Source of the DNA: Strigamia acuminata
Lineage: Eukaryota
Direction of reading: 5' to 3'
Assembly: GCA_949358305.1 (NCBI GenBank)
Contig: OX442314.1
Coordinates: forward strand, 16,616,001 to 16,680,000
Length of the DNA stretch: 64,000 bases
The position numbers and the translations under genes were made by a program. The notes under the pieces are model-generated. The model saw only the letters and a list, made by a program, of their open reading frames with translations, ran no database searches and was not told the DNA's origin. Below, piece by piece: positions 37,701 to 63,256 of the stretch (its first letter is position 1; each line of letters begins with the position of its first letter).

Positions 37701-37848
37701 ACTTCAAAGCAATATTTTAAATTTTTGGTGTCATTAAATTACCGTATTGGTGCTTTGGAGCAAAGAAATCCTTGAAAGGCATATTTATGACTTCCTCAAT
37801 ATGTGCAGACCGTTTTCGAAATGAATTCAAAGCTACTGTCGTCGTCAT
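34782..37848 (-). CDS. ACSBG: Long/very-long-chain fatty acid-CoA ligase, bubblegum (ACSBG) family
   Basis: 14 phase-consistent GT-AG exons: 37848-37743, 37458-37214, 37149-37061, 36998-36803, 36741-36640, 36580-36533, 36467-36366, 36301-36054, 36000-35807, 35745-35636, 35582-35432, 35373-35234, 35174-34922, 34864-34782. Motifs YTSGTTGNPKG (AMP-binding), YLPLSHIAA, GYGLSETSGP, ITSGGENVAP, GPTLKLKR. Probable non-coding upstream exon ending near 37974. Confidence 0.93.
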
Positions 37849-38750: not shown

Positions 38751-39083
38751 GGATAATGTGTGGCGAGGGAATGATTGACACATCTTTAATGCTTAGCGTT
38801 AGAGTTCTACCAGACCCCTGGACCCCTTTCCAAATTCAAATACCACATCTATCGGTGCAATCAAAATCTTTTCTTCCTGCTTGTTACGTTTATTTGGATT
38901 AAGCAAATGTTTTACAACGAGGGAATAGTAAAATAAACTATTGGCAAACTATTTCTAAACCTGCAAAATGTTTTCAATAGTAGGGATAATGAAGTATTGA
39001 TTAAAGAACAGACCTCGCATGTAAATACTCTCAACATTCTTATTTTGATCTCATTCCTGAAGTGATTGCACAGCAGCCACACG

Positions 39084-40395
39084 ATGTTGTACCTGATTCC
39101 TCTCTTGGCGCTTTTGGGAGTGTCTTCAGCCCTTTACACGCCTCAAGTATATTTTAAATTACCACTTCTGGTTGAATAATAACTAATAATTTTTCTAATT
39201 TCAGGGTTGGTCGAAGACATTTGAAATTGCATTATTTACTGTATTTAAAAGTATTTATTACAGAGTTTAACTCGCATGTAAACGAGCGCATCATTGGGGG
39301 CAAGGAAGTTCGTAAAAACAGCTATCCGTTCATGGTGAGTTGCTAAATAACCGCATTTTAATCGTTGCTATTTAAAGTTCTTGCAAATAGGTTCGTATTG
39401 AATCGTTCAAGGCCGATGGTGTTAGATCTCTTTGCGGAGCGACTCTTTTACACGAAGACTTTGTCGTAACGGCTGCCCATTGCGTACATAACAGCCAGTA
39501 TTCATAAATTTATTTAAAATATATCAATTTAAATAAATTTATTTATTACACTGATAAATCTTAATTCCGACAGATCGCCCATAACGTCACTCAAACTGCA
39601 TTTTGGCGACCATCAATTGAGGCATGAAGATGACACTCAAACAACAATGGACATTCCATTGGCTAATGTAGAAGCACTTTACAAGCACTTTATTTCAGAT
39701 TTTCTCGATTAATTGTACAAATTGATTATGTAGATCCACCATCACTCCAGTTTTAGCAGATTAACTAAAAAAAACGACATAGCTATCATAAAATTGCCAC
39801 AGAAGGCTCCAATTTCAAAACATGTAAGCCCTATTTGCGTTGCAAGTGCGTCAACTGTGTCCGGACATAAAATTGGAACTGCAATGGGCTGGGGAATTAC
39901 CAAAAATATTCAAGATGGTACGATTTTACGCCAGTATTCGCAAGTTAGAACGCGCGAATTTTTTACTAGGGTCATCGTCGAGACATATCCTCAAAGATTT
40001 TTGAATAATTTGCAGGTGGCGTTGCCAGTGAGGTTTTGAAAGAAGTGAATCTTCCTATTTTGCCACATGCCGACTGCCGATTGATGAACCTATTCAAACC
40101 CGATACAATGATTTGCGCTGGAAATACAAAAGGAATCTTTACTTCATTTTGCATAGTATGTTAATGCGTCCTCCCTACTTGTCTGCTCAAAATTAATTTT
40201 ATTAATTTTTTTGTGCAGGGTGATTCTGGTGGACCATTCGTTGTGAAAGATGGAAAATTTTCACTTGTTGGAATTACATCGTTCGTCTCTGGAAAGGGAT
40301 GTGTTGCTGATGGATACGGCGTGGTGTTTGTGCGTGTCTCAAGCTACATTCCATGGCTGCAAGATACAATGGGATCTGCTCTTTGCATTGATTAA
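39084..40395 (+). CDS. Secreted S1A serine protease, paralog 1 (about 278 aa, chymotrypsin/elastase-like)
   Basis: Exons 39084-39146, 39205 (1 nt), 39264-39334, 39391-39497, 39574-39667, 39734-39917, 40016-40155, 40219-40395. Signal peptide, NER|IIGG activation site, TAAHC, NDIA, GDSGG; no stops. Confidence 0.93.
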
Positions 40396-40696
40396 TATAA
40401 AATCTGTAACTGACAAGTAGTAAAAGAATTATGTAAAATTCATTTTAGCTGCAAAAATAAAAACGTTAACAGTTTATCAGTAGTCTGTTGCTTGATTAAT
40501 TGTGACCCAAAGTCAAAACCATATTTTCTTTTTGGATTTACTTACAAATGAAGTCATTAATGAACATCATTACAGACAGTTTAATTAAAAAATCGTCTTT
40601 TTCATGAATTATCTGGTGTAACAAAAATTAAATCAGGCATTGCTGCTAACATGCATTTTTAAGGTTCTGTTAGCTATAATGTATTGTATGTATGTA

Positions 40697-40979
40697 CACC
40701 CGTGGAAAATAAAAACTTTCCTTATATTCAGCTGTTTTAAGTTTACTCTTGACCAGGTCTCATGTTTGACCCTAACAATAGTATTAAAAATTAGACCGGG
40801 CAGACTGGGCAAATCATGATGTCAATGGTTCTTTACGCCACCTTGTGGTCAAAGTTAAAACAGCTGTATTGCAGAAAAGTTTTTTTTTCCGTGGGTGTAC
40901 ATCCGTAGACAAAAAACTTCCCTTGTGTGCAGCAATTTTACAGTATACAAGGGAAATGTTTTTTTTTTGTCCACAGGTG
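40697..40979. mobile_element. Two adjacent related TA-flanked MITEs (40697-40897 and 40900-40979)
   Basis: First has long TIRs CACCCGTGGAAAATAAAAACTTTCC...CAGCTGTTTTAA mirrored at its right end; second is CATCCGTAGACAAAAAACTTCCCTTG mirrored by (reverse complement) CACCTGTGGACAAAAAAAAAACATTTCCCTTG; they share one TA. Confidence 0.7.
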
Positions 40980-41281
40980 TACAAACAGCTTGGCTTCTCT
41001 GACTGACATCAACAGCATCGCTCCTAGATAAATACTGTAATCCTGAATAGAGAGCAACTATGTGTACATCACACAATACTCTGTATAGTAGTAATAAAAT
41101 AAACAGAAATTAGCGAACTATTGTGAAACTTGCAAAATTTAAAAAACTAGCAAATTTTCAATAGCAAGGATAATTCTATTGATTGATTGATTGAACAACA
41201 CACATCCTCAGACGTATAAATACTCGAGATATTCTTAATCCTACCTCACATTTGAAGAAATTACACTACAGTAACTTCACC

Positions 41282-42578
41282 ATGTTGCACCTGATTCCTC
41301 TCTTTGCTCTCTTGGCAGCGTCGTCAGCCATGTTCACTCCCGAGGTATATGTTTTTAAAACATGACTTCTTTTCATTTAATAATAACTTTTACTTTTTCT
41401 CATTTCAGGGTTGGTTCAAAACTTTTAAATTGCAATTAAACTAATTTAAAAAAAAATTGTTTAAAAAATATTTATTGCAGACTTTTTGGATTTTGACTCA
41501 ACAGTAGATGAACGCATCATCGGTGGCGGTGAAGCTCGTAAAAACAGCTATCCATTTATGGTAAGTTGCTAAATCATTGCATTCAATCGTTGTAAATGTT
41601 GTTTTTGCAAACAGGTTCGTGTTGAAGCAAAAACCGCTGACGGATCAGGATTTCTTTGCGGAGCAAGTCTCTTGCACGAAAACTACGTTGTAACCGCAGC
41701 ACATTGCGTTTATAGCAGCGAGTAAATACATTTATTTTAAATATAAAAATGTATTATATTTATTAATGAATAATGTGCACTTATAAATGTCCATCGTAGA
41801 TCACGCATAACGTCCATCAGACTGCATTTTGGTGACCACAACATGTGGCAACACGATAATACCCAATCGTCAATGGACATTCCAATGGCTAATGTAAAAC
41901 ATATTTTTATTTTTATTTCTCATTTTCATAAATGTGTTACATAGGCCGAACGTCACGCCCAATACAACGAAAGAACTATCGAAAACGACATTGCCCTCAT
42001 CAGATTGCCTCGAAAGGCCCCAATTTCAGGTCATGTTAGCCCTATTTGCGTTGGCAGTGCGTCGACCGTTGCCAAACAAAATATTGGAAGGGCATTGGGA
42101 TGGGGACTAACCAGCAATCCTCAACAAGGTATAAGTTTATACCCAGTGCACTGTTGCAACAATTGCTAATGTATAACTTTAACTTACCGTGCAGGTGGAC
42201 AGGTTAGCGAAGTTTTGAAACAAGTCGATCTTCCGATTTTGCCAAATGCCGAATGCCGTTTGTTTGGAACATTCAATCCAAACACAATGATTTGTGGTGG
42301 AAATACAAGAGGGATCTCAGCTGCCGTTTGCTCAGTATATTAATTAAACTCAAGACCATCTGTCCTAAAAATACATTTGTGTAATTTTTTTAATGTAGGG
42401 AGATTCTGGTGGACCATTCGTGGTGGTAGACAATGGAAGATATGTTCATACTGGAATTTCTTCGTACGTTTCTGGATATGGTTGTGTAGCTGTTGGATAC
42501 GGTGTTGTGTTTGTACGTGTCTCAAATTACATTCCATGGCTGCAAGCCAGAATGGGATCGGCTCTTTGCGTTGTCTAA
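41282..42578 (+). CDS. Secreted S1A serine protease, paralog 2
   Basis: Same 8-exon structure (exon 1 41282-41344, 1-nt exon 41409, exon 3 from 41481); DER|IIGG, TAAHC, NDIA, GDSGG; TATAAA near 41215. Confidence 0.93.
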
Positions 42579-42828
42579 TATGAAATCTGTAAACAACAAT
42601 TGAATAAAAATTTCTTACTAGAGTTAAAACACTAAAAGTTATCTGTCAAATTCATTTTAACTGCAAATATTAAAACTTTTGATTGTTTATTTGCAAAACT
42701 TTAAACTGTTTTGCTTGTTTACCTTATGACTTAAATAAAAATAAGGTCAAAAATATTTCTTTTTTAAATACGGTAAAAACTTACAAACTAAGCGCCTAAA
42801 TGATAATACCGTAATTATTTTTCCTGTA

Positions 42829-43413
42829 TACCCATGAACATAAAAAAAAACTTCCCTGTAGTACAGCTGGTAAGAAGTTCAGAACTTCATGTGAATGCAG
42901 GGATTAATACGTAAAATTACGATGCAAGGGTCTACAACCTACCCTAAATAGCAGAATTCGCTAACAAATTATTGGTTGAAATTTCAACCAACAATTTGAA
43001 ATTTCACACTGGATCGGTGAAGTTAAAAGGGGCGCCATCTGGGTTCGACTCCTGGCTTAGGACTCCTCGGAGTGCGAGCAGATTCGTTTTTATTTAAACA
43101 AATAATTTGATAGTCAATTGTGGTACTTGGGGCTGCGGGTAGGTGCAGGTTCTAGGCCTATTGAATCTTAATTACTGGTTGTACGTTTGTCCACAAAGAG
43201 GCATAAAAATTTTGAGGTGTAATGACATAAGCATTTTCCCGATCTATGAACTATATAGTCTGTGTTCTGTGGTAAAGGCAACACAGTTGACACACTTTCC
43301 AGACTCAAGAGACCAAGCCAAGACTGATGTCATTGAATCTCAATGGATTTTAAGCCACCTGGTAGATAAACTTGAAACAGCTAAACTAAAAGGAAGTTTT
43401 TTGTCTACAGGCG
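42829..43413. mobile_element. Longer copy of the TA-flanked MITE family seen at 40.7 kb
   Basis: Ends TACCCATGAACATAAAAAAAAACTTCCCTGTAGTACAGCTG and (reverse complement) CGCCTGTAGACAAAAAACTTCCTTTTAGTTTAGCTG; right subterminal region resembles 40800-40865. Confidence 0.55.
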
Positions 43414-43619
43414 TACACGTGAACAAACAAGATAACAGTATGAAAATTTAACTTGAATGTCCAGCTAACAAGCGCTAAGAAATAAAACATCTGCCAAATT
43501 GCTGTCTTTGCAAAATTCACTTTCAATTTTCTACTCACGTCAAATATAAAATTCATATAAATATCTGACGAAACAAGAATTCATCCTCAGTCGAGTTGAA
43601 CCTTCCTGGACATCGTACC

Positions 43620-44901
43620 ATGTTTCAAATTATTCCTCTTTTCGGCCTCTTGGCCCTGTCTTCAGCTATGCTGTTACCCGAAGTACCATTTTTACAGTTT
43701 CTTGTAATATTGACATTTAATATAAATTTTCTTTTCCAATTTAGGGTATAGACCCAGTATTCATCGAATGGTATTGAATAAAAATGTTAGATTTTATAAA
43801 TTTCCTTTTATAGATTTTCAGTACTCGGGAAACACTGCTGATGAGCGCATTATTGGTGGAAAAGAGGCTCGCAAAAATAGTCATCCATTTGTGGTAAGTA
43901 TGTAGAATTTTAGATTTTGAAGTAAACTAAATTGGCGATTGTTTCTCAAGGTTCGAATTGAAGCCACAAATGTCGATGGAGCTGGATTCTTGTGTGGAGC
44001 GACACTGCTAAGTGAAAACTATGTAGTAACCGCTGCACATTGTGTACACGACAGCTAGTAATTTCCCAACACTTTTTATTATGTTTTTAATGTTAAATTA
44101 ATTTTTTTTTCATAGTACACCAATTAAAAAAATGACTCTTCATTTTGGTGACCATCACCAATATTATAAAGAAGATACACAAACAACGATGAACGTCCCC
44201 ATGGCAAATGTAAAAATCGTGTTTTATCTGTCTTTAATTTTCTTAAATATTGTTTGAATTTGATTTTAGATTGTTTACCATTCTAAATACGATGAAAGAT
44301 ACATCATAAATGACATTGCCCTTATTCGCCTGCCCAGCAAAGCACCAATTTCAGCTCACGTGAAACCATTGTGCATAACCTCGACTGCTACCACAGCTAA
44401 ACATACCGATGCAACAGCCATCGGCTGGGGATTAACCAGAGACGAAAATGAAGGTAAAACGATTTAAACGTAAACGAGCAAATGTAATTATTACAAAACA
44501 TGTACAGGTGGATCCGTTAGTGAGGTGCTGAAAGATATCACTCTTCCAATCCTTCCGAATGCTGAATGTCGTTTGTACGGTGTCTTCAATCCAACCACTA
44601 TGATGTGCGCAGGCAACACTTTGGGACTTCGAGCAGCAATTTGTTCCGTAAGTCTAACAATCCATCCAATTTGCTTTTTTTTTCTAGTATGCTGTTATAA
44701 TTTTATTTGTAGGGTGATTCTGGTGGACCATTGGTTGTAAAGACTGGTACAGCAGGTACACAATATTCCCTCGCCGGTCTCACTTCCTTCAGTTCTGCAA
44801 AAGGATGTGTTGCTGTTGGGTATGGTGCAGTGTTCACTCGATTGTCCGGTTTCATCCCTTGGTTGCAGGGTTATATGAAATCTGAACTGTGCATAGTTTA
44901 A
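43620..44901 (+). CDS. Secreted S1A serine protease, paralog 3
   Basis: Exon 1 43620-43682, 1-nt exon 43745, exon 3 from 43814; intact triad motifs; TATAAA near 43556 and Inr-like TCAGTC near 43587. Confidence 0.93.
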
Positions 44902-45330
44902 GACGTAATGAGAAATAAAAATAAAGCATGATGTGATTCATTGGCTGTGAATTGTCTACCTGAATTTTGTGATTATTTACACTACAGTTCATGAAAAAAA
45001 AAACAATATAAAGCAGCATGGGCAAACACAAATATAAATAAAAAACAAGTTTTTCGTGCGGAAATTTTCGTTCTTTGTGTGGAGTGATGTTTTAATTGGT
45101 ACCAGCAATTCAGGATGGGGGAATGTGGAATTGTGTGTGCTAAGACTTAGTTTCTTTTGCAATTTCAATGACAGTTAATTAATTAATCCTACAACTTAAG
45201 TTGGAAAATCAGTCTATAAAAGACCACCACAAGACAAGTTCCTTGGTCATTCTCCACTCTTGTTCATCATGGTGATGCTTAAGGCTGTTAGTACTATTCC
45301 AATTCCGTTCCAACTCTGTTCCAACGTATT

Positions 45331-45466
45331 CAGGGCCGCATTAAGAGCTAAACCATAATGATATTTTAGTGCCTCCAAATATGGAAAATGAAAAATTTCT
45401 ATGTTGCCCCATTCCCTTGATGCCCTACGCACATCCTTATTTTTCTTTTTGGTTAATCCAGCCCTG
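45331..45466. mobile_element. Small hAT-like MITE, duplicated at 48420-48555
   Basis: TIRs CAGGGCCGCATTAA and (reverse complement) CAGGGCTGGATTAA; no clear target duplication. Confidence 0.5.
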
Positions 45467-46515
45467 GCATAACCTGAATAGGTTTATAAGGCCATAAACC
45501 ATACAACCGTCTCTCTCTGTGATTTTGTTTACACGTGTCGTGCAGGCGGTACTAACTGGACGACCTTAATATAAGTCCAGATGGCGTCTATCCACTCCCA
45601 CACAACAACTCATTCTCAAGTGTGTGATTCAATAATCGTTTGAATTTATTATTACAAATGCAGATAAATTAGCGTAGAGTAAGTTAAAAGGGGTTATGAT
45701 ATTACAATTTGCATTCTTTTCTGTCAATAAGTAAGTTTTAAAACTTGTATGAAAAAATCAAATAAATTTTATGAATTTTGAAGATTACGAGATAAAAGCG
45801 AAACCAACTCGAGAAAGACGAGACATCTTGAACATAGATGTTTGATATGAGACTCTACAGTAAATATTGAGTCTTTGGTCACACAGCAAAACCCAAAACA
45901 TTGCAGTGTCACTTATGTATAATCATTCATTTACCTGAAATTTGTTATAAATGGCCATTATGTTTGCAACGAGAACAAACAGGTCATAATTAAACCAAAA
46001 AGGACAAAATTTCAAATTGAAATATAATTGTAATAATTAATGTACAGAATTTACTAGTATTAATTAAAATTAATTTTGAAGGAGCGTATACTGTGTAACA
46101 GGATCAGCTTGAGGTGCTGAAGATACTTTCAAAATGAGAAATACGTCACTGCTTTATCCATTTCCGAAATTGTATAAATTGTCCCAGGACATTCCAACAC
46201 AAAATGTTTCGCCCAAATTGCATGACCAAAATGACCATAAAAATTGTATAGCCGAGCCGACATAAAATGAAAATGATTTCATTAGGCTCGCTTCGCTGCG
46301 CTGCTTTCGGCAACAACAAATAGACAACACAATGTGAAAATTTAACTTGAATGACCAACTAACAAGTCTTATTAATAAAAACAGCTGTCACACTGCTGCC
46401 TCCGCGAAAGTAATTCTCTTTCAAGTTTCTAAGCAAATTAAACAAAATCTATATAAATTCGTTGCAAACTAAAATTTCATCTTTAGTCGAATCGACCTTT
46501 CCTGGACTTCACATC

Positions 46516-47982
46516 ATGTTTCAAATTATTCCTCTCTTCAGCCTCTTGGCCCTGTCTTCAGCTATGCTGTTACCCGAAGTACCATTTTTACAGTTTCTTG
46601 TAATATTGACATTTAATATAAATTTTCTTTTCCAATTTAGGGTATAGGCCCAGTATTCATCAAATGGTATTGAATAAAAATGTTAGATTTTATAAATTTC
46701 CTCTTATAGATTTTCAGTACTCGGGAAACACTGCTGATGAGCGCATTATTGGTGGAAAAGAGGCTCGCAAAAATAGTCATCCATTTGTGGTAAGTATGTA
46801 GAATTTTAGATTTTGAAGTAAACTAAATTGGCGATTGTTTCTCAAGGTTCGAATTGAAGCCACAAACGTTGACGGAGCTGGATTCTTGTGTGGAGCGACA
46901 CTGCTAAGTGAAAACTATGTAGTAACCGCTGCACATTGTGTACACGACAGCTAGTAATTTTCCAACACTTTTTATTATGTTTTTAATATTAAATTAAATT
47001 TTTTTTTATAGTACACCAGTTAAAAAAATTACTCTTCATTTTGGTGACCATCACTATTTTTATAAAGACGATACACAAACAACAATGAACGTCCCCATGG
47101 CAAATGTAAAAATCGTCTTTTTTCTGTCTTTAATTTTCTTAAATATTGTTTGAATTTGATTTTAGATTGTTTACCATTCTAAATACGATGAAAGATACAT
47201 CACAAATGACATTGCCCTTATTCGCCTTCCCAGCAAAGCACCAATTTCAGCTCACGTAAAACCATTGTGCATAACCTCTACTGCTACCACAGCTAAACAT
47301 ACGGACGCAACAGCCATCGGTTGGGGATTAACCAGAGACGAACATGAAGGTAAAACGATTTAAACGTAAACAAACAAATTAACCGTTTTGGTGCAATTAT
47401 TCCTTTGTTGCACCAAAATGCGCTCATTGCGCATATCTGCAGTGCAGATCCAAAGTGTTCTGGGCTCAAATTTGGAGTTTTGGCACACTCTTGAATTCAC
47501 AACCAAACATACAACACATCTTGTCGTTGTTTTTATTATTATTACTATTATTATAATTATTATTATTACAAAACATTTACAACTCTAGGTGGAACCATTA
47601 GTGAGGTGCTGAAAGATATCACTCTTCCAATCCTTCCAAATGCTGAATGTCGTTTGTACGGTGTTTTCAATCCAACCACTATGATGTGCGCAGGCAACAC
47701 TTTGGGACTTCGAGCAGCAATTTGTTCCGTAAGTCTAACAATACATCCAATTTGCTTTTTTTTTCTAGTATGCTGTTATAATTTTATTTGTAGGGTGATT
47801 CTGGTGGACCATTGGTTGTAAAGACTGGTACAGCAGGTACACAATATTCCCTCGCCGGTCTCACTTCCTTCAGTTCTGCAAAAGGATGTGTTGCTGTTGG
47901 ATATGGTGCAGTGTTCACTCGATTGGCCGGTTTCATCCCTTGGTTGCAGGGTTATATGAAATCTGAACTGTGCATAGTTTAA
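46516..47982 (+). CDS. Secreted S1A serine protease, paralog 4 (near-identical to paralog 3, chimeric 5' end)
   Basis: Exon 1 46516-46578, 1-nt exon 46641, exon 3 from 46710; introns and exons almost identical to paralog 3 except an insertion in intron 6. Confidence 0.93.
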
Positions 47983-48646
47983 GACGAAATGAGTAATAAA
48001 AATAAAGCATTGGCTGTGAATTATCTGCCTGAATTTTGTGATTATTTACACTACAGTTCATGAAAAAAAAAACAATATAAAGCAGCATGGGCAAACACAA
48101 ATATAAATAAACAACAAGTTTTTCGTGAGGAAATTTTCGTTCTTTGTGTGGAGTGATGTTTTAATTGGTACCAGCAATTCAGGATGGGTGAATGTGGAAT
48201 TGCGTGTGCTAAGACTTAGTTTCTTTTGCAATTTCAATGACAGTTAATTAATTAATCCTACAACTTAAGTTGGACAATCAGTCTATAAAAGACCACCACA
48301 AGCCAAGTTCCTTGGTCATTCTCCACTCTTGTTCATCATGGTGATGCTTAAGGCTGTTAGTACTGTCAGTACTGTTCCAATTCCGTTCCAACTCTGTTCC
48401 AACTCTGTTTCAACGTATTCAGGGCCGCATTAAGAGCTAAACCATAATGATATTTTAGTGCCTCCAAATATGGAAAATGAAAAATCTCTATGTTGCCCCA
48501 TTCCCTTGATGCCCTAAGCACATGCTTATTTTCCTTTTTGGTTAATCCAGCTCTGGCATAAACTGAATAAGTTTATAAGGCCATAAACCATACAACCGTC
48601 TCTCTCTGATTTTCTTTACACGTGTCGTGCAGGCGGTACTAACTGG

Positions 48647-48779
48647 TGTCGCGTCAAGCTATTGCAGAGCACCGCAAACAGTAGCTTGTCGCGTTTAGCT
48701 ATTCCTAACAATGTTACGCCCATTGCTAGGCGCGAATCGCAATGTCGCGCCTAGCTATGTCGCGCCCTGTACGCATCAC
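48647..48779. mobile_element. Short insertion with TGTCGCG repeats, flanked by a direct repeat
   Basis: Absent from the paralogous site at about 45552-45559; CTAACTGG duplicated at 48639-48646 and 48780-48787; four TGTCGCG(..AGCTA) units. Confidence 0.7.
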
Positions 48780-48789
48780 CTAACTGGAC

Positions 48790-49235
48790 CGGTTATAGTC
48801 ATTTTAGCAACGCTCATTTTAGCGATTTTTACAAAAAAGTCCCGTTTTAGCGATCACGTTTTAGCGACAATAAGGTAATTTTCCAGTAGTGATCGACACG
48901 TTTTAGCAAGCGCCACATTTTAGCGATCGCTACGTTTTAGCGACGTGACACGATTTACCGCGACAAGCCGGCTCAAAAAAGTGGTTTGCATAAAAAAACC
49001 AGTAAGGTTAGGTTCGTGGGGGGTCAAGAGGGGGCTCAGCCCCCCTTGTTAGCCCTTCTCAGGAATTAAACCTAAACTATATGGTTAGGTTAATATTAGT
49101 GCCATTTTAGCAACCATCACTTTAGCGAACATGTCATTTTAGCGATTTTTGTGTCGCTAAAATGACATGTTCGCTAAAATGGTGTGTTGCTAAAATGAAA
49201 TCGCTAAAATAAAATCGCTAAAATGAAGTACATCC
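48790..49235. mobile_element. Non-autonomous DNA transposon with inverted arrays of TTTTAGCGA subterminal repeats
   Basis: Many TTTTAGC(G/A)A units on the left and TCGCTAAAAT units on the right; central GGGGGCTCAGCCCCC hairpin with GGTTAGGTT motifs; absent from the paralogous spacer. Confidence 0.75.
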
Positions 49236-50069
49236 ATTTGTATTCTTTTCTGTCAATAAGTAAGTTTTAAAACCCAAAAACAATTTCACTTAACTTGTAT
49301 TAAAAAAATCAAATGAATTTTATGAATTTTGAGGATTACGAGATAAAAACGAAACCAACTCGAGAAAGACGAGACATCTTGAACATAGATGTTTGATATG
49401 AGACACTAGAGTAAATATTGAGTCTTTGGTCACACAGCTAAACCCAAAACATTGCAGTGTCACTCATGTATAATCATTCATTTACCTGAAGTTTGTTATA
49501 AATGGCCATTATGTTTGCAACGAGAACAAACAGGTCATAATTAAACCGAAAAAGAAAAAATTTCAAATTGAAATAATTATTATAATTAATGTACAGAATT
49601 TACTACAGGTAGTATTAATTAAAATTAATTTTGAAGGAGCATATACTGTATAACAGGATCAGCTTGAGGTGCTGAAGATACTTTCAAAATGAGAAACTAC
49701 GTCACTGCTTTATCCATCTCCGAAATTGTATAAATTGTCCCAGGACATTCCAACACAAAATGTTTCGCCCAAATTGCATGACCAAAATGACCATAAAAAT
49801 TGTATAGCCGAGCCGACATAAAATGAAAATGATTTCATTAGGCTCGCTTCGCTGCGCTGCTTTCGGCAACAACAAATAGACAACACAATGTGAAAATTTA
49901 ACTTGAATGACCAACTAACAAGTCTTATTAATAAAAACAGCTGTCACACTGCTGCCTCCGCGAAAGTAATTCTCTTTCAAGTTCTTTCAAATTAAACAAA
50001 ATCTATATAAACATGTTGCAAACTAAAAATTCATCTTTAGTCGAATCGACCTTTCCTGGACCTCACATC

Positions 50070-51372
50070 ATGTTTCAAATTATTCCTCTCTTCAGCCTCT
50101 TGGCTCTGTCTGCAGCTATGCTGACACCAGAAGTATTTGCAACTAATTTTAATATTCAGTGTGTAATATATAACATAAAATTTATTTTTTAATATAGGGT
50201 AGGTCCAAAATTCATCGCTTATGAGATGTAATTGGATACGTATATTGAATAATTTTTTGTAGATTTTGAGGGCTGGGAAAGCACTATTGACGAGCGCATT
50301 ATTGGTGGAAACGAAGCGCGCAAAAACAGTTACCCTTTTATAGTAAGTATACGAACAAGGACAAGGACTATTTTCGATTTTGGATAAAACTAAAGTAAAC
50401 TAATATTTTTTCGTTTAAAGGTTCGAATTGAAGCCGTTGATGCTAGCGGAGCTGGATACTTGTGCGGAGGAACTCTTCTCAGTGACGAATATGTAGTAAC
50501 CGCAGCACATTGTGTCCAAAGTAGCGAGTAAGTCTACATTTAGATATTTTGTTGTAAATTTTGATTGTTATACTTAAAAAAAAATATTGTAATAGATCAC
50601 CAATTCGTTCTATTACACTTCATTTCGGTGACCATTATCTTAGTCGTCAAGATAATACACAAACAACGATGACTATCCCCATGGCAAATGTAAAGATTTT
50701 CTTTTCAACTTTTTTCCGGTTGTTGAAAATAAAATCGCATTTAATTTTAGATTGCTGTCCATCCTCTGTACAGTGAGAGACAAATTACAAACGACATTGC
50801 CCTTATTTACCTTCCGCGCAAAGCACCCATTTCAGCTCACGTCAAAACTCTGTGCGTGACCTCTGCCGATACCGCATACGAACATAAAAAGGGAACCGCC
50901 CTCGGTTGGGGATTAACCAAAAACGATCATGAAGGTAAAAGAAAGTTAAGCATCAACGAACATATTATAAAATGTGATTCACTTATAGGTGGAGATGTAA
51001 GTGAAGTGCTCAAAGAAGTTAGTCTTCCAATTCTTCAAGCCAGGGATTGTTATTTGTTTGGTACTTTCAATCCAAAATCTCAGATTTGTGCAGGCAACAC
51101 GAGAGGACTCCCAGCAGCAATTTGCTCCGTAATGACCTCAAATTTTGCTATACTTTTTAGTACAGACCTAATCTAAATGTTGATTTGTTTAGGGTGATTC
51201 TGGTGGACCATTTGTTGTGAACACTGGTAAAGAATATGCCCTCACAGGCCTCTCTTCGTACGGTTCGGCAAAAGGATGTGTTTCTGTTGGATATGGTGTA
51301 GTGTTCACTCGATTGTCCGCCTTCATTCCCTGGATTCAAAGATATGTGGGAACTGGTCTGTGTATTGTATAA
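50070..51372 (+). CDS. Secreted S1A serine protease, paralog 5
   Basis: Exon 1 50070-50132, 1-nt exon 50198, exon 3 from 50263; DER|IIGG, TAAHC, NDIA, GDSGG; TATATAAA at 50004-50011. Confidence 0.93.
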
Positions 51373-52606
51373 GATGAATAAAGCTTGATGTGATTTATTG
51401 ATTGACAAACAATGAAATGTAATTGTTATGGCAGCAATTATTCGACTGTTGCTAAAACAGTGAGAACCATCACGTTAATAATACGTTAATAATAGTCGTA
51501 ATCTTGAAACATGCAGATTATTCTTTAGATTTGTTTATACATAACAACAGATACATATACAAATGAAGACAATTACCTAAACTAAAGTTATTACAGTACC
51601 TGACAGCAGTCGAAGAAATTCTTGTGAGCATAAATAAAATTTTCAGTTATAGATAGATAGGTTAAAATAAAACATGGATTACGAGTAGGTTGGAGCCACC
51701 TCTTTAATGCGAGCGCCTAAAAGAAAGTTACACAATTTTTCATTTTTATTTAAAAAAAAAATAAAAAAAGTGTTTTCTTTTTGTTTCTTCTAAAATATGT
51801 TCAATGAATGAAATAAAATGAGTGGTATCAACATCAATAATAATTCCACTGACATTATTTCAAATTCCTTATTTTTCAAACAAAAGAAACGACTACACGT
51901 ATACGACTACATTTCAAAAGTTTAGCAAGTTGGCTAAAAACAGTCACGATAAGTTCAAAGATAAAAAATCGTAGCTACAACTGCTATCCTACGAGGACAC
52001 CCCTTTTTGGCGAAATTGTAAATCAGCGCCAGCAACGGAAATAGCGACTGGTGCAACTCTATTTGTTAGCAAACCTTAACCTACCACAAGCTCACAAGCA
52101 AATCTCACAATGCCACGATTGGAAACATTTCCCGTTAAGAGATGGCGCTTAAACAAACCAGGGAATCAACAACGTAACCCAATGGGCACAGACGCAATAA
52201 TAAGTAATATAAACTAATATTAATTGAAATTAATTTTGATGAAACATGTACAACAGGATGAGCTTGAGGCACATGCAGAAGGGCACCATAGATACTTTTA
52301 AAATGAGAAACAGTACCGTACTGCTTTACCAATCTCCCAAACACAACCGTTTTGCTCAACCTGCGATCAAAATAACCATAAAAATGATTTCGTTAGATTC
52401 ACTTCGCGCTGTGTGCCAAATACAAATAAACAACACAATATGAAAATTTAACTTGAATGACTAACTAACAAGCCTTATTAATAAAAACATCTGTCGTATT
52501 GCTGCCTCCGCGAAAGTATCTTCGCAAATTGATTCAAATCTATACAAGTATGTTACAAACTAAAAATTCATCTTTAGTCGAATCGACCTTTCCTGGACTT
52601 CACACC

Positions 52607-54290
52607 ATGTTTCAAATTATTCCTCTCCTCAGCCTCTTGGCTCTGTCTTCAGCTATGCTGACACCAGAAGTACTCGCAATTAATTTCAATCTTCAGTGTT
52701 TAACATATAAACATCTATATATTTTAATGTAGGGTAGGTTCAAAATTTCATTGCTTCTGGGATCTAAATGAATGCGATAAACACCTGTATCTTCACCTAA
52801 CTAAGAACGATGTCTCCAAAGTATTTGAGACTCTACTCCCTCTTACTCCGTTTAGTGAACAAATTATGGGCCCCTTACCTCCGACCGGTCTTTCACCATC
52901 TCAAATGACCCCTCTGGTATCACCTACCCTTTATCAGAAGAATAAGATCTGTGGTCATCTGCTCCAGTAGTCTCAATGGTCTGTCGGTCTTTGGAAGGAA
53001 TTTCCCCCGGAGATCCTTGAGACAATCTTCTCGTGCTCAGCCCACCAACTGCAGATTACAGAAACGAATGTACAAATATATCTTAAAGAATCAACTTCAT
53101 TAACAATAACACAGTATATTGTATATACTGTTAAATAGATAAATAAATGATTTTTATAGACTTTGAGGGCTGGGAAAGCACTATTGACGAGCGCATTATT
53201 GGTGGAACAGAAGCCCGCAAAAATAGTTACCCTTTTATAGTAAGTATACGAAAAAGGACGAGGACTATTTTCGAATTTGGATAAAACTACGGAAACTGAT
53301 GGTTTTTCGTTTACAGGTTCGAATTGAAGCCACTAATATGGGCGGAAGTGAATTATTGTGCGGAGGAACTCTTATCAATGACTTTTATGTAGTAACCGCA
53401 GCACATTGTGTCGAATATACCGAGTAAGTCTATAATTACATATTTTGTTGCAAATTTTAATTAATTTGATTTTTGTCTTCTATTGAAAAAAAAAATATTA
53501 CAATAGCAATCCAGTTCGTTCTATTACACTTCATTTCGGTGACCATTATCTTAATCGTCCAGACGATACACAAACAACGATGAGCATCCCCATGAAAAAT
53601 GTAAAGATTTTTTTTTGCCTTTCTACAGGTTGTTAAAAATGAAATTGCGTTTAATTTTAGATCGAGGTGCATCCTTTATATAATGAAAGACGCCTAACAA
53701 ATGACATTGCCCTTATTCGCCTTCCCAGCAAAGCACCGATTTCAGCTCACGTCAAACCAATATGCGTAACCTCCGCTACAACCGCAGCTAAACATGAAAA
53801 GGCAACAGCCATCGGTTGGGGATTAACCAAAAACGGTCAAGAAGGTAAAAAAAATTAACCGTAAACAAACAGAGAGCGTATTACAAAATATGAATCACTT
53901 AAAGGTGGAGACGTTAGTGAAGTGCTCAAAGAAGTTAGTCTTCCAATCCTTCCAAATGATGAATGTCGTTTGTTCTTTTTTTTCAATCCAAATATAATGA
54001 TTTGTGCCGGGAACACAAAAGGGCTGCCAGCAGCAATTTGCTCCGTAATAACCTCGGAATTTGTTATACTTTTTTGTATTGACCTGATCTAATAGTTGAT
54101 TTGTGTATAGGGTGATTCTGGTGGACCATTTGTTTTGCACACTGGTTCAGAATATGCCCTCACAGGCCTCTCTTCGTTCGGTTCTAAAAACGGATGTGTT
54201 TTTGTTGGTTACGGCGTAGTGTTCACTCGATTGTCCGCCTTCATTCCCTGGATGCAAAAGCATATGGGAACTGGTCTGTGTATTGTATAA
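52607..54290 (+). CDS. Secreted S1A serine protease, paralog 6
   Basis: Exon 1 52607-52669, 1-nt exon 52733, enlarged intron 52734-53159, exon 3 from 53160; intact triad motifs. Confidence 0.92.
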
Positions 54291-54850
54291 GATGAATAAT
54301 AAAAGCCTCGTGTAATTAATTGTTATGTCATCAATTATTCGACTGTTGCTAAAACAGTGAGTACCATTTCAGAGCAAAGAATTATTTATGCTCCAGTTTA
54401 ACATGCGTTAATAATAACCGAAGATTTGTTGCTACATTAACACAGAAACATAATACAAGCAAACCTCACAATACCACTATGGGAAACATTTCCCATCAAG
54501 AGATGGCACTTAAACAACCCCGGGAATCAAGAATGTAGCAACAAAATAATCCAATGCACACAGACACATTTCTTACTTCTCTCACCACAGACCAACACTG
54601 ATAACAAACACACCAACAAACAACAACTCCTCCTAGTGCCACTCCTGCCAGGCATTTCAAAATGTGACAAGAAACGTTACGGAAGTAGTTTTGTTGAATT
54701 CACAAATTCACAAATGATCTGTGGTTGTATTAAAGCGCCGCATATAGGTTATTAGAGTAACTATTGACAACATGTGCAAGAACATCTGCGATTGACAATA
54801 CATTCGGAACAAAAAGATTAAATTGTATTACCATAAACTAAAAGCGACTA

Positions 54851-55036
54851 CAGTGTAGGCTGCGTAGTCCGGACATAGGACGGGACCCAGAAACTTGTCC
54901 GGTCTATGGAATGTCCGGATGGGAGAGGAGATTTAATGTTGCTGGGTATTGGGCGGGACCAAATCAGGCCCTCCAAACTGTCCGGACCACACAGCTGTCC
55001 GGACGGTGCTATGTCCGGGCTACGCAGCCTACACTG
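54851..55036. mobile_element. Young Tc1/mariner-type MITE, 186 bp
   Basis: 28-bp TIRs CAGTGTAGGCTGCGTAG(T/C)CCGGACATAG with one mismatch; TA on both sides; internal TGTCCGG repeats. Confidence 0.9.
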
Positions 55037-55099
55037 TATTTATTCCAGATAAAGCTGCAATGTATTTCAATTGAATCATCATTTCATTCCCAATAAACT

Positions 55100-56428
55100 A
55101 ATTGCAACGAGTACGAAGCCGCGTCCTGCGAAACAGGAAGTGTGTAACACTTGAAATTTTCGAGAAACGGTAGCGCCACCTGGTGGCGGTTTGTATTTGA
55201 AAATTTGAAATTGTTCGTTCCCGATACGATGAATGCTCTTTTCTATGTCGAAATGAGCTCGGAAAATTATGAAACCAAGCTCAAACGATTGCAAATTGAA
55301 TTTTGCATCCGCCTGTATCTTTTATTTTTTAATTTGGTCAAGGAAAACTACCGATTCGGACGTTTTTAGCGGGTGAACGAATGGAGAAAATTGCGAATTG
55401 TTCGTCGCGATACTTTTTTGTTTTTTTCTACGTCGTAATGAGGTCGGAAAATAATGAAACCAAGCTCATTTTGAAGAGGAGACAATTCTGCACAACCCTG
55501 TATTTTTTATTTTTTGATTCGGGTAAAATAAAGTAGCGATTCTGGCGATTGTAGCGGGGATCGAATGGAGAAATTTGAAAATGTTTGTCCCGATGTGTTT
55601 TTTTAGGATAATTCTGAAACCAGGCTCATTGGAAAGATAATCAAAATCTGCACAAGTCTGTATTTTTTTAAAATTCGAATCGGTAGAGAAAAAGTACAGA
55701 TTCGGGCGATCTTAGCGGGCGACCGAATGAGGAATTTGGTTCAAAATTTGGATTCGACCATGAAAAACCTAAAATTTGAAAAAAGAACCGATTGGAATGT
55801 TTAAATAAAGTTTCCAGTGTGGAAAATTCCGCTGAAAACAATGGTGTCAAAAACATTTTGATTGGAATTATGGTTGGGCTTTTAATTTGCAAAAATCAAT
55901 CTTTTATGTACTACAGTTTTGAACAAATTGTAGCCACGGTCGTGGGAAATATTAAATATTTGAAAAATCTGAGTTGATTTTCAGATTCCCAGAGTGTGTT
56001 TATGCTTTCTATCCAAACTGTCGTTACACTTATTCAAAATGGCAGGTCATTGCAGGTCTTTGCGAATGTTGGCGGGTCTTTGAGGGTGTTTGCGGGTGCC
56101 TGCGGGTGTTTGCGAGTTTTGGCAGGTCTTTGCGGGTCTTTGCGGGGTGATGGCGGGTGTTTGCGCAATGATGGCGGGATGATGGCGGGTGTTTGCGGGG
56201 ATGTTGGTGGATGATGGCTGCATTGGCGTTTGGTTTTGTTGGGTTTGATTTTGGTTTGGTTTGGTTTGGTTTGGGTTAAAGTTTTGTTGGATTTTGGTTT
56301 AAGTTTTCCATTATTTTGCAAAATTGTATTTTTATTTTATTTTTATTTTGCTGTATACAGTATATATTGTTTGATTTATGGCAAAAATTGATCTATGGTT
56401 TGCGGGTGAACGGCGGGTGAACAGCTAG
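55100..56428 (+). mobile_element. Non-autonomous Helitron-like element with internal tandem repeats
   Basis: 3' end GCGGGTGAACGGCGGGTGAACAGCTAG|T; three diverged units of about 160-185 bp (55210-55735), a TTGCGGGT(G/C)T minisatellite (56040-56210) and (TTTGG)n. 5' boundary uncertain. Confidence 0.55.
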
Positions 56429-57099
56429 TGATGTTTACTAATTTAAAATATTTCGAAACAAAACTTGACACCCTTTTCATTTTTGAAACCTTAATTTTAG
56501 CAACACGGCACAATTGGAATGGAAAAAAGGTTTATCAAATATAATATTCAACCTATAATTGAGAGGTTTCACTTCTTTCATCTGGTCTAAAGCACACACT
56601 TTTTTTAAAAAATAAAATGTCTGGTTGGACTTTACATAAGGTAACAAGCTCTTTTATAAGGATCACGTAGGTCATCAATAAGTTATTTCCAACAAGAACA
56701 TTTAAATGGTCATAATATAGTACCATACTGAAAAAGGTGAAATTTAAAATTTAAATATAATTATAATATATAATATAATCTAATATTAATTAAAATTAAT
56801 TTTGATGAAACATATACAACAGGAGAAACTTGAGGCGATCAAAATAACCATAAAAATGATTTCATTAGACTCACATCGGTGCGCTGTGCGCGCCAGCTAC
56901 AAACAAACAACACAATATGAAAATTTTTCTTGAATGACCTACTAACAAGTCTTATTAATAAAAACATCTGTCATACTGCCGCCTCCGCAAAAGTAATTCT
57001 CTTTCAAGTTTCTAAGCAAATTAAACAAAATCTATATAAATTCGTTGCAAACTAAAAAATTCATCTTGAGACCAGTCGACCTTCTTTGGACCTCACACC

Positions 57100-58419
57100 A
57101 TGTTTCAAATTATTCCTCTTTTCAGCCTCTTGGCGCTCACTTCGGCTATGCTGACACCCGAAGTACTCGCAATTAATTTCAATACTCAGTGTATAACATA
57201 TAATATAATATATATTTTTTAATATAGGGTATGTCCAAAATTCATCTCTTCTGGAATCTAATTGGATACGTATAATGAATAATTTCTTGTAGATTTTGAG
57301 GGTTTGGAAAACACAGTTGACGAGCGCATTATTGGTGGAAACGAAGCCCGCAAAAACAGTCACCCTTTTATAGTTAGTATACGACCAAGGACGAGGACTA
57401 TTTTCAAATTTGAATAAAACTACGGAAACTGATGGTTTTTCGAATACAGGTTCGAATTGAAGCCTATAGAATGGACGGATCTGATTTATTGTGCGGAGGA
57501 ACACTTATCAATGAGTTTTTTGTAGTAACCGCAGCACATTGTGTCACAATGTCCGAGTAAGTCTATATTTGCATAATATGTTGCAAATTTTGATTAATTT
57601 GGTTTCTTTCTGTATTTAAAAAAAATTATTACAATAGTAATCCGATCCGTACTTTTTCAATTCATTTCGGTGACCATTATCTTTTTCATCCAGATGATAC
57701 ACAAACAACGATGAGCATCCCCTTGAGAAATGTAAAGATTATCGTTTTACCATTCTTCAGGTTGTCGAAAATGAAATTGCATTTAATTTTAGATTGTGGC
57801 GCATCCTTCATATGATGAGTTACGCCTAACAAATGACATTGCCCTTATTCGCCTTCCCAGCAGAGCACCGATTTCAGCTCACGTCAAAACGTTATGCGTA
57901 ACCTCTGCTGCAACCGCAGCCAAACATCAAAAGGCAACAGCCATCGGCTGGGGATTAACCAAAAACGGCCACGAAGGTAAAAAAATTAAGCGTAAACAAA
58001 CAGTTAGCGTATTAAAAAATATGAATCACTTAAAGGTGGATCCGTTAGTCAAGTGCTCAAAGAAGTTAGTCTCCCAATCCTTCCACATGATCAATGCCGT
58101 TCGTTCTATTCTTTCAATCCTAATATAATGATTTGTGCCGGGAACACGAGAGGGCAGCAAGCATCAATTTGCTCCGTAATGACCTCGAAATTTGATTTAC
58201 TTTTTGGTATTGACCTAATCTAAACGTTGATTTGTTTAGGGTGATTCTGGTGGACCATTTGTTGTTAATACTGGTAATCAATATGCCCTCACAGGCCTCT
58301 CTTCGTTCGGTTCGACAACCGGATGTGTTACTGTTGGTTACGCTGTAGTGTTCGTTCGATTGTCCGCCTTCATTCCCTGGATACAATACTATGTGGGAGC
58401 TGGTCTGTGTATTGTATAA
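57100..58419 (+). CDS. Secreted S1A serine protease, paralog 7
   Basis: Exon 1 57100-57162, 1-nt exon 57228, exon 3 from 57293; all exons translate in phase with intact H/D/S motifs; TATATAAA at 57033-57040. Confidence 0.93.
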
Positions 58420-59768: not shown

Positions 59769-60469
59769 CTATTTTTTCCCTCTTTTCGAAGACTTCAACT
59801 TTCTCGGTTTGGCCGCACTCTTCTTAAGTACAGATCTCTTGGGGCTTTTTGGTTTCTTTGCCTTGGCAGCAACAGTTTTCTTTTTTGCCACAACTTTTTT
59901 CGGAGATTTTGCAATCGTAGACTTCTTTGCAATCGGTGACTTTGCTTTCTTTCTCTTCCCAATTTTCTTCTTGGGCGTTTCAACTCTTTCGATGATCTTC
60001 ACTTTCTCAGCTGGAGGAGGAGCGCTGGTTTTAAGAGACGACTTTCTTGGTATGCGCATAACAGGCCCTTCCTTGTCGGATATACGGAAAGATCCCGATG
60101 CACCTTGACCTTTGGCGTGTTTTAAAACTCCAGTGGACAGACCCCTTTTCAGAGCAATCTTTAAATGCGTATTCACTAGTTTTGTGTCTTTGCTGACTTC
60201 ATAATTCTCCATGATGTATTTCAAAATTGCTTGACGAGACAAACCATTTCGATCTTTTTTAAACAAAGAAAAGAAATAAAATTTAGAAAATTAAAAAAAT
60301 AATAATAATAATTTTTTATTTTAAATTTACCTTTAATTTCATTAATGGCGGAAATTGACATCTCCATGTAGTTGGGATGATTTGGAGTGTTTTTCTTTTT
60401 TTTCGGTTTGGCTGTCTTCGGTCGCCCTCTCGTCGCCACAGCTGGAGTTGCAGTTGCCGTATCAGACAT
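59769..60469 (-). CDS. Linker histone H1 variant (H1.0/H5/H1-delta-like), intron-containing
   Basis: Exons 60469-60331 and 60253-59769 (77-nt phase-1 intron). Winged-helix globular domain HPNYMEM...SRQAILKYI...KGQGASGSFRI; Lys-rich tail with SPKK, TPKK and SPKR. Confidence 0.92.
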
Positions 60470-60573
60470 GATGCGAGATGTTGATGCTGGATAACTTGTA
60501 GTCACGACACAAGAGCAAGATGTTTCAGTTCTGAAGCAAATTACTTAGTGCGAGTGGCGGCGCTCGCTCTCCC

Positions 60574-62079: not shown

Positions 62080-63256
62080 CTAAATCATTTGCAATTGAAG
62101 GTATTTTTTCATGGCTTCGCTGCTGTATCGAGGATCAGGAGTGAGACTCGACTCAAACCTCTTGGTCGGCGTGGCTCCCCACACACACAATGCTTTACGA
62201 TTGATCAACGCATACCTAAAAGATAAATAACCTATAGTATACAACTTTATTTAACTCAATTGTGCGTACAAACAACTTACTTTGAGTTTGTCAGGTTTAG
62301 AAGAAAATTCCAATAACTGTGTGAAAGACCATCAGGTTGGAATAAACTCTGAGAAAGTGAAAACAATGTTTAAAATTACTAGGCTCTGACGTCTTAAAAG
62401 CTAAGATTACCACATGGAACATGCTCGCGGTTAACGCTGCATATAGAATATCCAGAGAATAAGGTATGACTGGTATGTGACCATTTTTTATCCCAATTGA
62501 GCACAGGAGCTATTAACAATCAATTAATTATTCAAAACTGTTTGGCTTAATAAAATTACTAACTTCGATCATCTTCCAGAAGCTGTACGATGCTAATGCA
62601 GGCGATGGAAACAGTAACATTGACCAACCAGCTACAAATCCAGATAGAAGACCATTAATGGGTTCATCTGTATTTCTAATCCATCTAAGCAGGCAATTTA
62701 AAGACTGCAAATATTTGTTATTTTGACAACCAAAACTTCTAGTGCCAAGTCTACCCTTCGCAACTTAACTTACCCTACAGAAGAGAGTAAAACTTCCCAA
62801 AAATAATCCAAATTTCACATTTTGGCTAGACAGAAGATATAAAACTAACACTTGTGGGTACTTTATTGTTAGTTTAAATGATGATATTGCTTTTAATAGG
62901 ACTTTACCAATGTATCCGACGAAAAATGGGCGTAAAAATCCCTAGAAATATATAGAGAAATGTAGAATTTTGCACTGGTAATCTACAGTCGTATAATAAC
63001 AAACCGTGATGCAATAGTGCACGCATCCTTTTTCATGAACACAACATTTGTGTTTAGGCCCAAACTGAATTGAATCTATAAGATAATTTATATAAAATAA
63101 AGTAAAATGAAAAACGTTAAATTAAACAAGTTACCTAATATTTTTTTGTACGTGTTAAGTACTGAAGGTTTGTTCAGTTGATTTTCATGATTTTTCTTAG
63201 CATCATTTGGATAATTTTTACTCGGTGATCCACCTTCGCCCGGTCCAACGAGAAAC
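62080..63256 (-). CDS. TMEM135: Transmembrane protein 135-like, 3' exons (5' exons unresolved)
   Basis: Successive exons translate to FLVGPGE..., FGPKHKCCVHEKGCVHY, FGLFLGSF, CLLRWIRNTD...SGFVAGWSM, ILYAALTASMFH, SYWNFLLNLT, YALINRK...; stop at 62082-62080. Confidence 0.85.

What the first reader, a model, noticed from the sequence alone, without database searches (positions are those of the whole stretch)
39147..57292. Conserved single-nucleotide exon (AG|G|GT) in all seven protease paralogs
Seen: in every copy the 63-nt signal-peptide exon ends in phase 0, but the homologous acceptor of the propeptide/IIGG exon is in phase 1, so direct joining frameshifts. Inside each otherwise divergent AT-rich interval is an invariant YAG-G-GT after a T-rich tract: G at 39205 (TTCAG G GTTGGT), 41409 (TTCAG G GTTGGT), 43745 and 46641 (TTTAG G GTATAG), 50198 (TATAG G GTAGGT), 52733 (TGTAG G GTAGGT), 57228 (TATAG G GTATGT). 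It splits the interval into introns of 58/58, 64/71, 62/68, 62/68, 65/64, 63/426 and 65/64 nt, the usual size here. Including the G restores frame and always gives an acidic codon (GAG/GAC/GAT) before a conserved Phe. Established: 1-nt exons are documented but very rare (e.g. Arabidopsis APC11) and are routinely missed by aligners and gene finders. Inference: a 1-nt coding microexon kept through repeated duplication. Caveat: paralogs 1, 3 and 4 have a nearby in-frame alternative AG and 5-7 a weak in-frame GAG.
Basis: partly seen in the sequence, partly recalled or inferred. Interest (0 to 1): 0.93.

Follow-up and report, generated by a model that had tools for sequence, protein, structure and literature searches.

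The report
One-base exon in centipede proteases
In seven neighbouring protease genes of an animal that is likely a centipede, a lone G sits between two ordinary-sized introns and is likely spliced in as a one-base exon that keeps the protein in frame, an arrangement described so far in plants and fungi.

Summary
Seven intact S1 protease paralogs, all under purifying selection, have a 63-nt phase-0 signal-peptide exon and a phase-1 propeptide exon. Between them lies YAG-G-GT, splitting the gap into two normal-sized introns. AGGGT is the only G-containing 5-mer shared by all seven gaps, although synonymous sites are near saturation. Paralog 2 has no single-intron in-frame alternative. The nearest named proteins are from the centipede Strigamia maritima, with matching gene order. 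Full-length homologues from short metagenome contigs, one seen as a polyadenylated mRNA, carry Asp at residue 22 in 6 of 7, as the model predicts. Missing: RNA from this species. A junction G in mRNA cannot tell the middle G from the G of a flanking GT or AG; intermediates or a minigene are needed. Six paralogs have weaker in-frame alternatives, and 1 of 35 ordinary introns holds the motif by chance. Best reading, about 90%: a constitutive 1-nt exon spliced in two steps. The kind is known from plants and fungi, and this scan noted fungal cases on other DNA. My paper searches found no animal nuclear case.

The parts
39084..40395 (+). Paralog 1, S1 protease gene, 8 exons counting the G; exon 1 39084-39146, propeptide exon from 39264
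   Evidence: orthologous to S. maritima unit 1
39205..39205 (+). Candidate 1-nt exon G of paralog 1 (introns 39147-39204, 39206-39263); first base of a Glu codon
41282..42578 (+). Paralog 2, S1 protease gene; exon 1 41282-41344, propeptide exon from 41481
   Evidence: closest to the transcript-like homologues, 73-76%
41409..41409 (+). Candidate 1-nt exon G of paralog 2 (introns 41345-41408, 41410-41480); the cleanest case, no single-intron in-frame alternative
43620..44901 (+). Paralog 3, S1 protease gene; exon 1 43620-43682, propeptide exon from 43814
43745..43745 (+). Candidate 1-nt exon G of paralog 3 (introns 43683-43744, 43746-43813)
46516..47982 (+). Paralog 4, recent duplicate of paralog 3 (dS 0.07); exon 1 46516-46578, propeptide exon from 46710
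46641..46641 (+). Candidate 1-nt exon G of paralog 4 (introns 46579-46640, 46642-46709)
50070..51372 (+). Paralog 5, S1 protease gene; exon 1 50070-50132, propeptide exon from 50263
50198..50198 (+). Candidate 1-nt exon G of paralog 5 (introns 50133-50197, 50199-50262)
52607..54290 (+). Paralog 6, S1 protease gene; exon 1 52607-52669, propeptide exon from 53160
52733..52733 (+). Candidate 1-nt exon G of paralog 6 (introns 52670-52732 and 52734-53159, the second enlarged to 426 nt)
57100..58419 (+). Paralog 7, S1 protease gene; exon 1 57100-57162, propeptide exon from 57293
57228..57228 (+). Candidate 1-nt exon G of paralog 7 (introns 57163-57227, 57229-57292)

Best explanation
Each of the seven protease genes has a single G between an AG and a GT that is likely a constitutive one-base coding exon, predicted to be joined in two successive splicing steps and to supply the first base of the Asp or Glu codon at residue 22 of the zymogen. 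Shown by sequence: two complete GT-AG introns of about 60 nt flank the G, and the frame is open only with one extra base at the homologous splice sites. Inferred: introns here are recognised across the intron; two spliceosomes cannot sit one base apart, so one intron goes first and the G becomes the edge of a normal-sized exon for the second step. I lean about 60:40 to intron 2 first, because its donor is the stronger (-1 G in 7 of 7 and +5 G in 5 of 7, against 1 of 7 and 0 of 7 for intron 1) and so should win the downstream acceptor and prevent skipping. Skipping would give a stop after 26-67 codons. Inferred origin: intron 2 is the old phase-1 intron that commonly follows signal-peptide exons, and intron 1 was gained one base upstream. 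The arrangement predates the duplications, which themselves predate the split from S. maritima.
For: (1) Frame: open with G in 7 of 7, broken without in 7 of 7; the other 35 introns are all GT-AG and in frame. (2) Paralog 2 has 0 single-intron in-frame GT/GC-AG joins between ATG and IIGG. (3) The genes are alive: dN/dS 0.16-0.80 in 21 of 21 pairs, catalytic motifs intact in 7 of 7. (4) Sizes: the undivided gap is 117-136 nt (490 in paralog 6), while 33 of 35 ordinary introns are 51-83 nt and 12 of 13 steps in the neighbouring ligase gene are 53-65 nt. (5) Conservation: AGGGT is the only 5-mer with G or C shared by all seven gaps, and no such 5-mer is shared in the five ordinary intron sets. 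dS between paralogs 1-2 and 3-7 is 1.4-2.1; only 14 of 60 fourfold sites are invariant, 1 of them a G. (6) Of 10 close database proteins, 7 have a complete N-terminus and 6 of these have Asp at residue 22; three read PE-D-FL like paralog 2. L001 is a polyadenylated, intron-free mRNA with 63 nt, then G, then AC. (7) The S. maritima model T1ITR3 lacks the signal exon in 4 of 4 units and enters the propeptide at D-F in 2 of 4. (8) Short-read contigs match 39000-43346 and 43645-44064 with no difference or gap.
Against: No RNA of this species was available, so inclusion here is inferred. The transcript-like homologues come from unknown species whose gene structure I could not see; a plain phase-1 intron would give the same mRNA. 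None falls in the clade of paralogs 3-7. Six of seven paralogs have 10-22 single-intron in-frame alternatives; for paralog 7 the alternative donor 28 nt downstream scores better (4.0) than the exon-1 donor (-0.7). On a matrix from the 35 ordinary introns, the exon-1 donors of paralogs 3, 4, 6 and 7 fall below the ordinary minimum (1.6). The donor after G in paralogs 1-2 scores only 1.8, and the acceptor before G in paralog 2 scores 3.7, just under the minimum of 4.0. One of 35 ordinary introns holds a chance TAGGGT. MAFFT did not align the motif across the two deep groups, so my alignment-based invariance test did not recover it. P0009 has Asn, not Asp, at the apparent junction. The DNA runs may be the source of the assembly and so are not independent.
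Confidence: 0.9

Rival explanations
1. One long intron with a non-canonical end: the extra G is the G of the GT donor (intron starts TA) or of the AG acceptor (intron ends YA), and the middle AGGGT is something else.
For: It gives the same mRNA and protein, so the homologue evidence cannot exclude it.
Against: All 35 other introns are GT-AG. It leaves unexplained a conserved acceptor-G-donor at the point that yields two normal-sized introns.
Confidence: 0.04
2. No microexon: each paralog uses its own in-frame alternative site (a GAG or CAG acceptor further downstream in paralogs 1 and 3-7, or a donor 28 nt into intron 1 in paralogs 5-7), and paralog 2 is dead or does something else.
For: Such joins exist in 6 of 7 paralogs, 10-22 each; the +28 donor pairs with the strong main acceptor in paralogs 5-7. 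No transcript of the paralog 3-7 clade was found.
Against: No alternative is shared by all seven, and paralog 2 has none yet is under purifying selection. 0 of 35 ordinary acceptors are GAG. The 28-nt extension differs mostly by amino-acid-changing substitutions among paralogs 5-7 (read). The three closest homologues keep D-F and 33 residues before IIGG.
Confidence: 0.04
3. The frame break is an assembly error, a shared pseudogene lesion, or is repaired after splicing by base insertion or ribosomal frameshifting.
For: None direct. RNA was not seen.
Against: The same offset occurs in seven copies with dS up to 2; short-read contigs match paralogs 1-3 at these sites; dN/dS is below 1 in 21 of 21 pairs; a homologous mRNA is in frame as a plain ORF. 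I know of no G-insertion editing in animal nuclear mRNA (recalled).
Confidence: 0.02

Closest known systems
One-nucleotide exon of Fusarium CYP621A P450 genes (PMC12940212; parts 1-2 of 3 of the text read)
   Same: Identical AGGGT, a gap about twice the usual intron size, a phase mismatch cured by one G, missed by gene models.
   Different: Fungal; orthologs of one gene; lies in a length-constrained motif; SRA reads support it. Here it is an animal, a tandem family of seven paralogs, and a propeptide whose length varies among homologues (30-34 residues before IIGG from the Met).
1-nt exons of plant APC11 and VPS55 (PMC4674806, parts 1-2 of 3 read; PMC8831610, passages)
   Same: One base near the N-terminus, needed for frame; its omission truncates annotated N-termini; stepwise removal of the two introns is proposed.
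   Different: The APC11 base is A and was proven by mutation in a minigene; it lies 333 nt into a 422-nt gap. No such proof here.
Coprinopsis cinerea microexons (PMC12230235, passages)
   Same: 13 exons of 1 nt in 13 genes, so such exons are not unique in fungi.
   Different: Fungal, found by long reads; no animal case.
Animal microexons, 3 nt and up (PMC7392893, passages; PMC8831610, passages)
   Same: Very short internal exons in animal nuclear genes.
   Different: Those listed are 3-9 nt, usually multiples of three and often alternatively spliced under neural factors. This one is 1 nt, frame-setting and apparently obligatory. The only animal 1-nt exon in my searches is mitochondrial (placozoan cox1, PMC5436844, search listing and start of abstract only).
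Strigamia maritima gene model T1ITR3 (UniRef)
   Same: Four orthologous protease units, 74-79% identical to their best matches here, numbered next to the ortholog of the neighbouring acyl-CoA ligase (T1ITR4).
   Different: The model fuses four genes into 1036 aa and drops every signal-peptide exon; likely an annotation failure at this junction.

Membership tests
Spliceosomal single-nucleotide exon (APC11, VPS55, CYP621A type) | One base with AG directly before and GT directly after | tested here: met
   YAG-G-GT in 7 of 7
Spliceosomal single-nucleotide exon (APC11, VPS55, CYP621A type) | Both flanking introns complete and of spliceable size | tested here: met
   58-71 nt (one 426), GT-AG, against 51-98 nt (one 239) for 35 ordinary introns; some site scores are at or below the ordinary minimum
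Spliceosomal single-nucleotide exon (APC11, VPS55, CYP621A type) | The base is needed for the reading frame | tested here: met
   At the homologous sites in 7 of 7; strictly, with no single-intron alternative, in paralog 2 only
Spliceosomal single-nucleotide exon (APC11, VPS55, CYP621A type) | The base is present in the mature mRNA of the gene | tested here: inconclusive
   Seen only in homologues from other, unnamed species; no RNA holder listed for this DNA
Spliceosomal single-nucleotide exon (APC11, VPS55, CYP621A type) | The mRNA base comes from that genomic position (mutation or intermediates) | not testable with these tools
   Needs raw RNA reads or a minigene
SRRM3/4-type neural microexon | Length usually a multiple of three, frame kept when skipped | tested here: not met
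   1 nt; skipping gives a stop after 26-67 codons in 7 of 7
Recursive (zero-length ratchet) splice site | AG followed directly by GT inside a long intron, nothing retained (definition partly recalled) | tested here: not met
   One base lies between AG and GT, the gap is short, and retaining nothing breaks the frame. It may still work like a two-step recursive event.
Spliceosomal twin intron (stwintron; recalled, no paper read) | Inner intron interrupts the donor or acceptor dinucleotide of an outer intron | tested here: not met
   By inspection: removing either intron leaves the G between intact sites; no split GT or AG is rebuilt
Peptidase S1 (trypsin fold) zymogen | IIGG start, His-Asp-Ser motifs, PF00089 | tested here: met
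   Motifs in 7 of 7 models; PF00089 on homologues P0003 and P0004; best solved relative is elastase-like CELA1. No Asp at the position that defines trypsin (numbering recalled), so likely elastase- or chymotrypsin-like.

The most novel reading that the evidence does not exclude
This is the first one-base spliceosomal exon in an animal nuclear gene: obligatory, frame-setting, made by an intron landing one base from an older one, and carried through at least six duplications and into other soil centipedes. It would show that animal spliceosomes need no minimum exon length where introns are short, and that such exons are hidden in animal annotations.
Probability: 0.6. Interest if true: 0.75.

Novelty: new member of a known kind. 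Interest (0 to 1): 0.62.

Why it matters
It would move the lower limit for animal nuclear exons from 3 nt (the smallest in the papers I read) to 1 nt. Seven paralogs with different donor and acceptor strengths, and one with an enlarged second intron, form a natural series for testing the order of intron removal around an exon too small for exon definition. It also explains a concrete annotation failure: the S. maritima model that fuses four genes and loses their signal peptides. A genome-wide AG-N-GT scan in short-intron animals becomes an obvious test.

Tried and rejected
No whole genome is held for this window, so no genome-wide count was possible. Run search: no RNA holder listed; two runs that behave as DNA. 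The laid stretch ended after paralog 5, so paralogs 6 and 7 have no read check, and the listed pieces do not show the G sites of paralogs 4 and 5. The metagenome scan gave 4 loci from 223 pattern matches; only L001 is a close relative, and no genomic or intron-retaining contig of the family appeared. The representative search (1485 hits, best 150 listed) was led by long multi-domain proteins; of the close family I recognised only P0008 and did not inspect the rest. A MAFFT invariant-column test failed to align the motif across the deep groups (paralog 6 left out for its insert); I replaced it with a k-mer test and a G-anchored view on all seven. Origin by tandem duplication of one intron: no consistent similarity between introns 1 and 2 (2, 12 and 8 of 300 shuffles reached the score in paralogs 3, 4 and 6; 217, 241, 204 and 42 in the others). 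Retention of intron 2 is out of frame in the six short cases. The minus-strand TAGGGTAAGT at 62774 reads as an ordinary donor after an exon that ends in AGG (by eye). P0007's odd N-terminus looks like a contig frameshift after the junction and was not counted. Paper searches for animal cases. PMC7821500 had no match to my terms, the PMC9341508 hit was unrelated, and the passages of bioRxiv 2024.04.21.590414 held no natural 1-nt exon. A search on Strigamia venom proteases listed one review that I did not read, so I make no claim on tissue or venom role.
Full report
What is there. The region 39084-58419 holds seven tandem S1 protease genes on the plus strand. Built from coordinates, each has eight exons if the single G is counted; all seven are open for 278-285 codons, and the 35 introns after the junction are GT-AG and in frame. 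His, Asp and Ser motifs are intact in 7 of 7, and dN/dS is below 1 in 21 of 21 pairs. These are working zymogen genes: signal peptide, short propeptide, then R-IIGG.

Organism. Two protein searches with window exons each returned one hit, both from the centipede Strigamia maritima and with consecutive accession numbers: an acyl-CoA ligase (80%) and a four-unit protease model. The window has the ligase gene next to the protease cluster. In a tree of mature domains, paralog 1 pairs with unit 1 (100/100), paralog 2 with unit 2 (89/89) and paralogs 3-4 with unit 3 (97/98). So the window likely comes from a related centipede, and the deep duplications are older than the species split. The species is not identified.

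The observation. Exon 1 is 63 nt and ends in phase 0; the homologous acceptor of the propeptide exon is in phase 1; direct joining stops after 26-67 codons in 7 of 7. YAG-G-GT lies at the stated positions and splits the gap into the stated sizes. The undivided gap is 117-136 nt (490 in paralog 6), about twice the local norm: 33 of 35 ordinary introns are 51-83 nt, and 12 of 13 steps in the ligase gene are 53-65 nt.

More than chance. A suitably placed YAG-G-GT arose in 0.5-2.8% of 5000 shuffles for six gaps and 11.8% for the long one. Because the copies share ancestry, retention is the better test. Synonymous distance between paralogs 1-2 and 3-7 is 1.4-2.1, and only 14 of 60 fourfold sites are invariant across all seven, 1 of them a G. 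Yet AGGGT is in all seven gaps and is the only shared 5-mer with G or C; the five ordinary intron sets share none. Against this: 1 of 35 ordinary introns holds a chance TAGGGT, YAGGGT occurs 36 times on the two strands of the window, and MAFFT did not line the motif up across the deep groups.

Other ways to keep the frame. I listed every single-intron join from a GT or GC donor to an AG between the ATG and IIGG. Paralog 2 has none. The others have 12, 22, 22, 16, 13 and 10; none is shared by all, and most use off-consensus sites (0 of 35 ordinary acceptors are GAG). The exon-1 donors of paralogs 3, 4, 6 and 7 are weaker than any ordinary donor on this small in-sample matrix.

Evidence from relatives. 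A search with the S. maritima model found close proteins on contigs of 910-1214 nt. Of 10, seven have a complete N-terminus; six have Asp at residue 22 (two of the six are near-identical), and three read PE-D-FL with 33 residues before IIGG, as predicted for paralog 2. The seventh, P0009, has Asn there. One was seen as DNA: L001 is intron-free, has a poly(A) tail, and reads 63 nt, G, AC. The others are taken as transcripts from their contig sizes. Their species and gene structures are unknown, and none groups with paralogs 3-7, so they fix the protein junction, not the mechanism. The S. maritima model lacks the signal exon in 4 of 4 units and enters at D-F in 2 of 4, which is what a gene finder would do at this junction (inference).

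Read data. No RNA holder was listed. Contigs of two DNA-like runs match 39000-43346 and 43645-44064 without difference, which argues against an indel error in paralogs 1-3, though the runs may be the source of the assembly.

Mechanism. Most likely (0.9) the G is a constitutive exon. Stepwise removal under intron definition is the model proposed for APC11 (PMC4674806, Discussion) and fits introns this short. Either order includes the G. The donor of intron 2 is the stronger, which would help it win the downstream acceptor; I lean to intron 2 first, untested. G suits both roles, as the base after an acceptor and before a donor (argued in PMC12940212). An mRNA junction cannot prove the source of the G, since exon 1 is followed by G and exon 3 preceded by G; that leaves a non-canonical single intron as a small rival. 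On origin, phase-1 introns are in excess after signal peptides, serine proteases included (PMC7259759, passages), so intron 2 is likely old and intron 1 gained one base upstream; this is inference. The rescue by a cryptic AGGGT proposed for Fusarium fits less well, as propeptide length varies here.

Comparison and novelty. One-base spliceosomal exons are known in Arabidopsis APC11, plant VPS55, Fusarium CYP621A and 13 Coprinopsis genes. Six searches of the held library found no animal nuclear case; the animal examples listed in PMC7392893 start at 3 nt. The library lacks most subscription papers, and I saw no supplementary microexon tables, which may hold unremarked 1-nt entries. Earlier notes of this scan record two fungal 1-nt and one diatom 2-nt case on other DNA, nothing on this genome, and no matching animal case. 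Verdict: a real feature, a new member of a known kind, likely the first from an animal nuclear gene. Interest 0.62.

Noticed in passing
window 39918-40015 (G at 39970): Paralog 1 intron 6 is 98 nt against 54-66 in five other copies and holds an internal TAGGGT; using it would break the frame. Treated as a chance control.
   Followed up: partly
window 52734-53159: Paralog 6 intron 2 carries about 360 extra, less AT-rich bases; the one-base exon is kept beside a 426-nt intron. Source of the insert not sought.
   Followed up: no
window 47350-47588: Paralog 4 intron 6 grew from 54 to 239 nt since its recent split from paralog 3; contig depth is high there, so likely a repeat.
   Followed up: no
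window 34785-37848, minus strand: Long-chain acyl-CoA ligase gene with about 13 short introns, next to the protease cluster as in the S. maritima numbering.
   Followed up: partly
P0002 (S. maritima T1ITR3): The public model fuses four protease genes into one 1036-aa protein with no signal peptides; likely a mis-annotation caused by this junction.
   Followed up: partly
P0009: A more distant homologue has Asn at the apparent junction; if its gene has the same structure, the one-base exon would be an A.
   Followed up: no
window 43240-43663 and 48752-49599: Very high-copy repeats between the protease genes (summed contig depth 10,000-148,000 against about 100-270 for unique DNA).
   Followed up: no
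window 44900-46500 and 47980-50060: Intergenic DNA was duplicated along with paralogs 3-5, by eye.
   Followed up: no
window 59769-60544, minus strand: Linker histone H1 gene (PF00538) that appears to be split by an intron.
   Followed up: partly
window 62400-63100, minus strand: Exons of a hydrophobic protein with no Pfam hit for the exon tested; it resembles TMEM135 (recalled, untested).
   Followed up: partly
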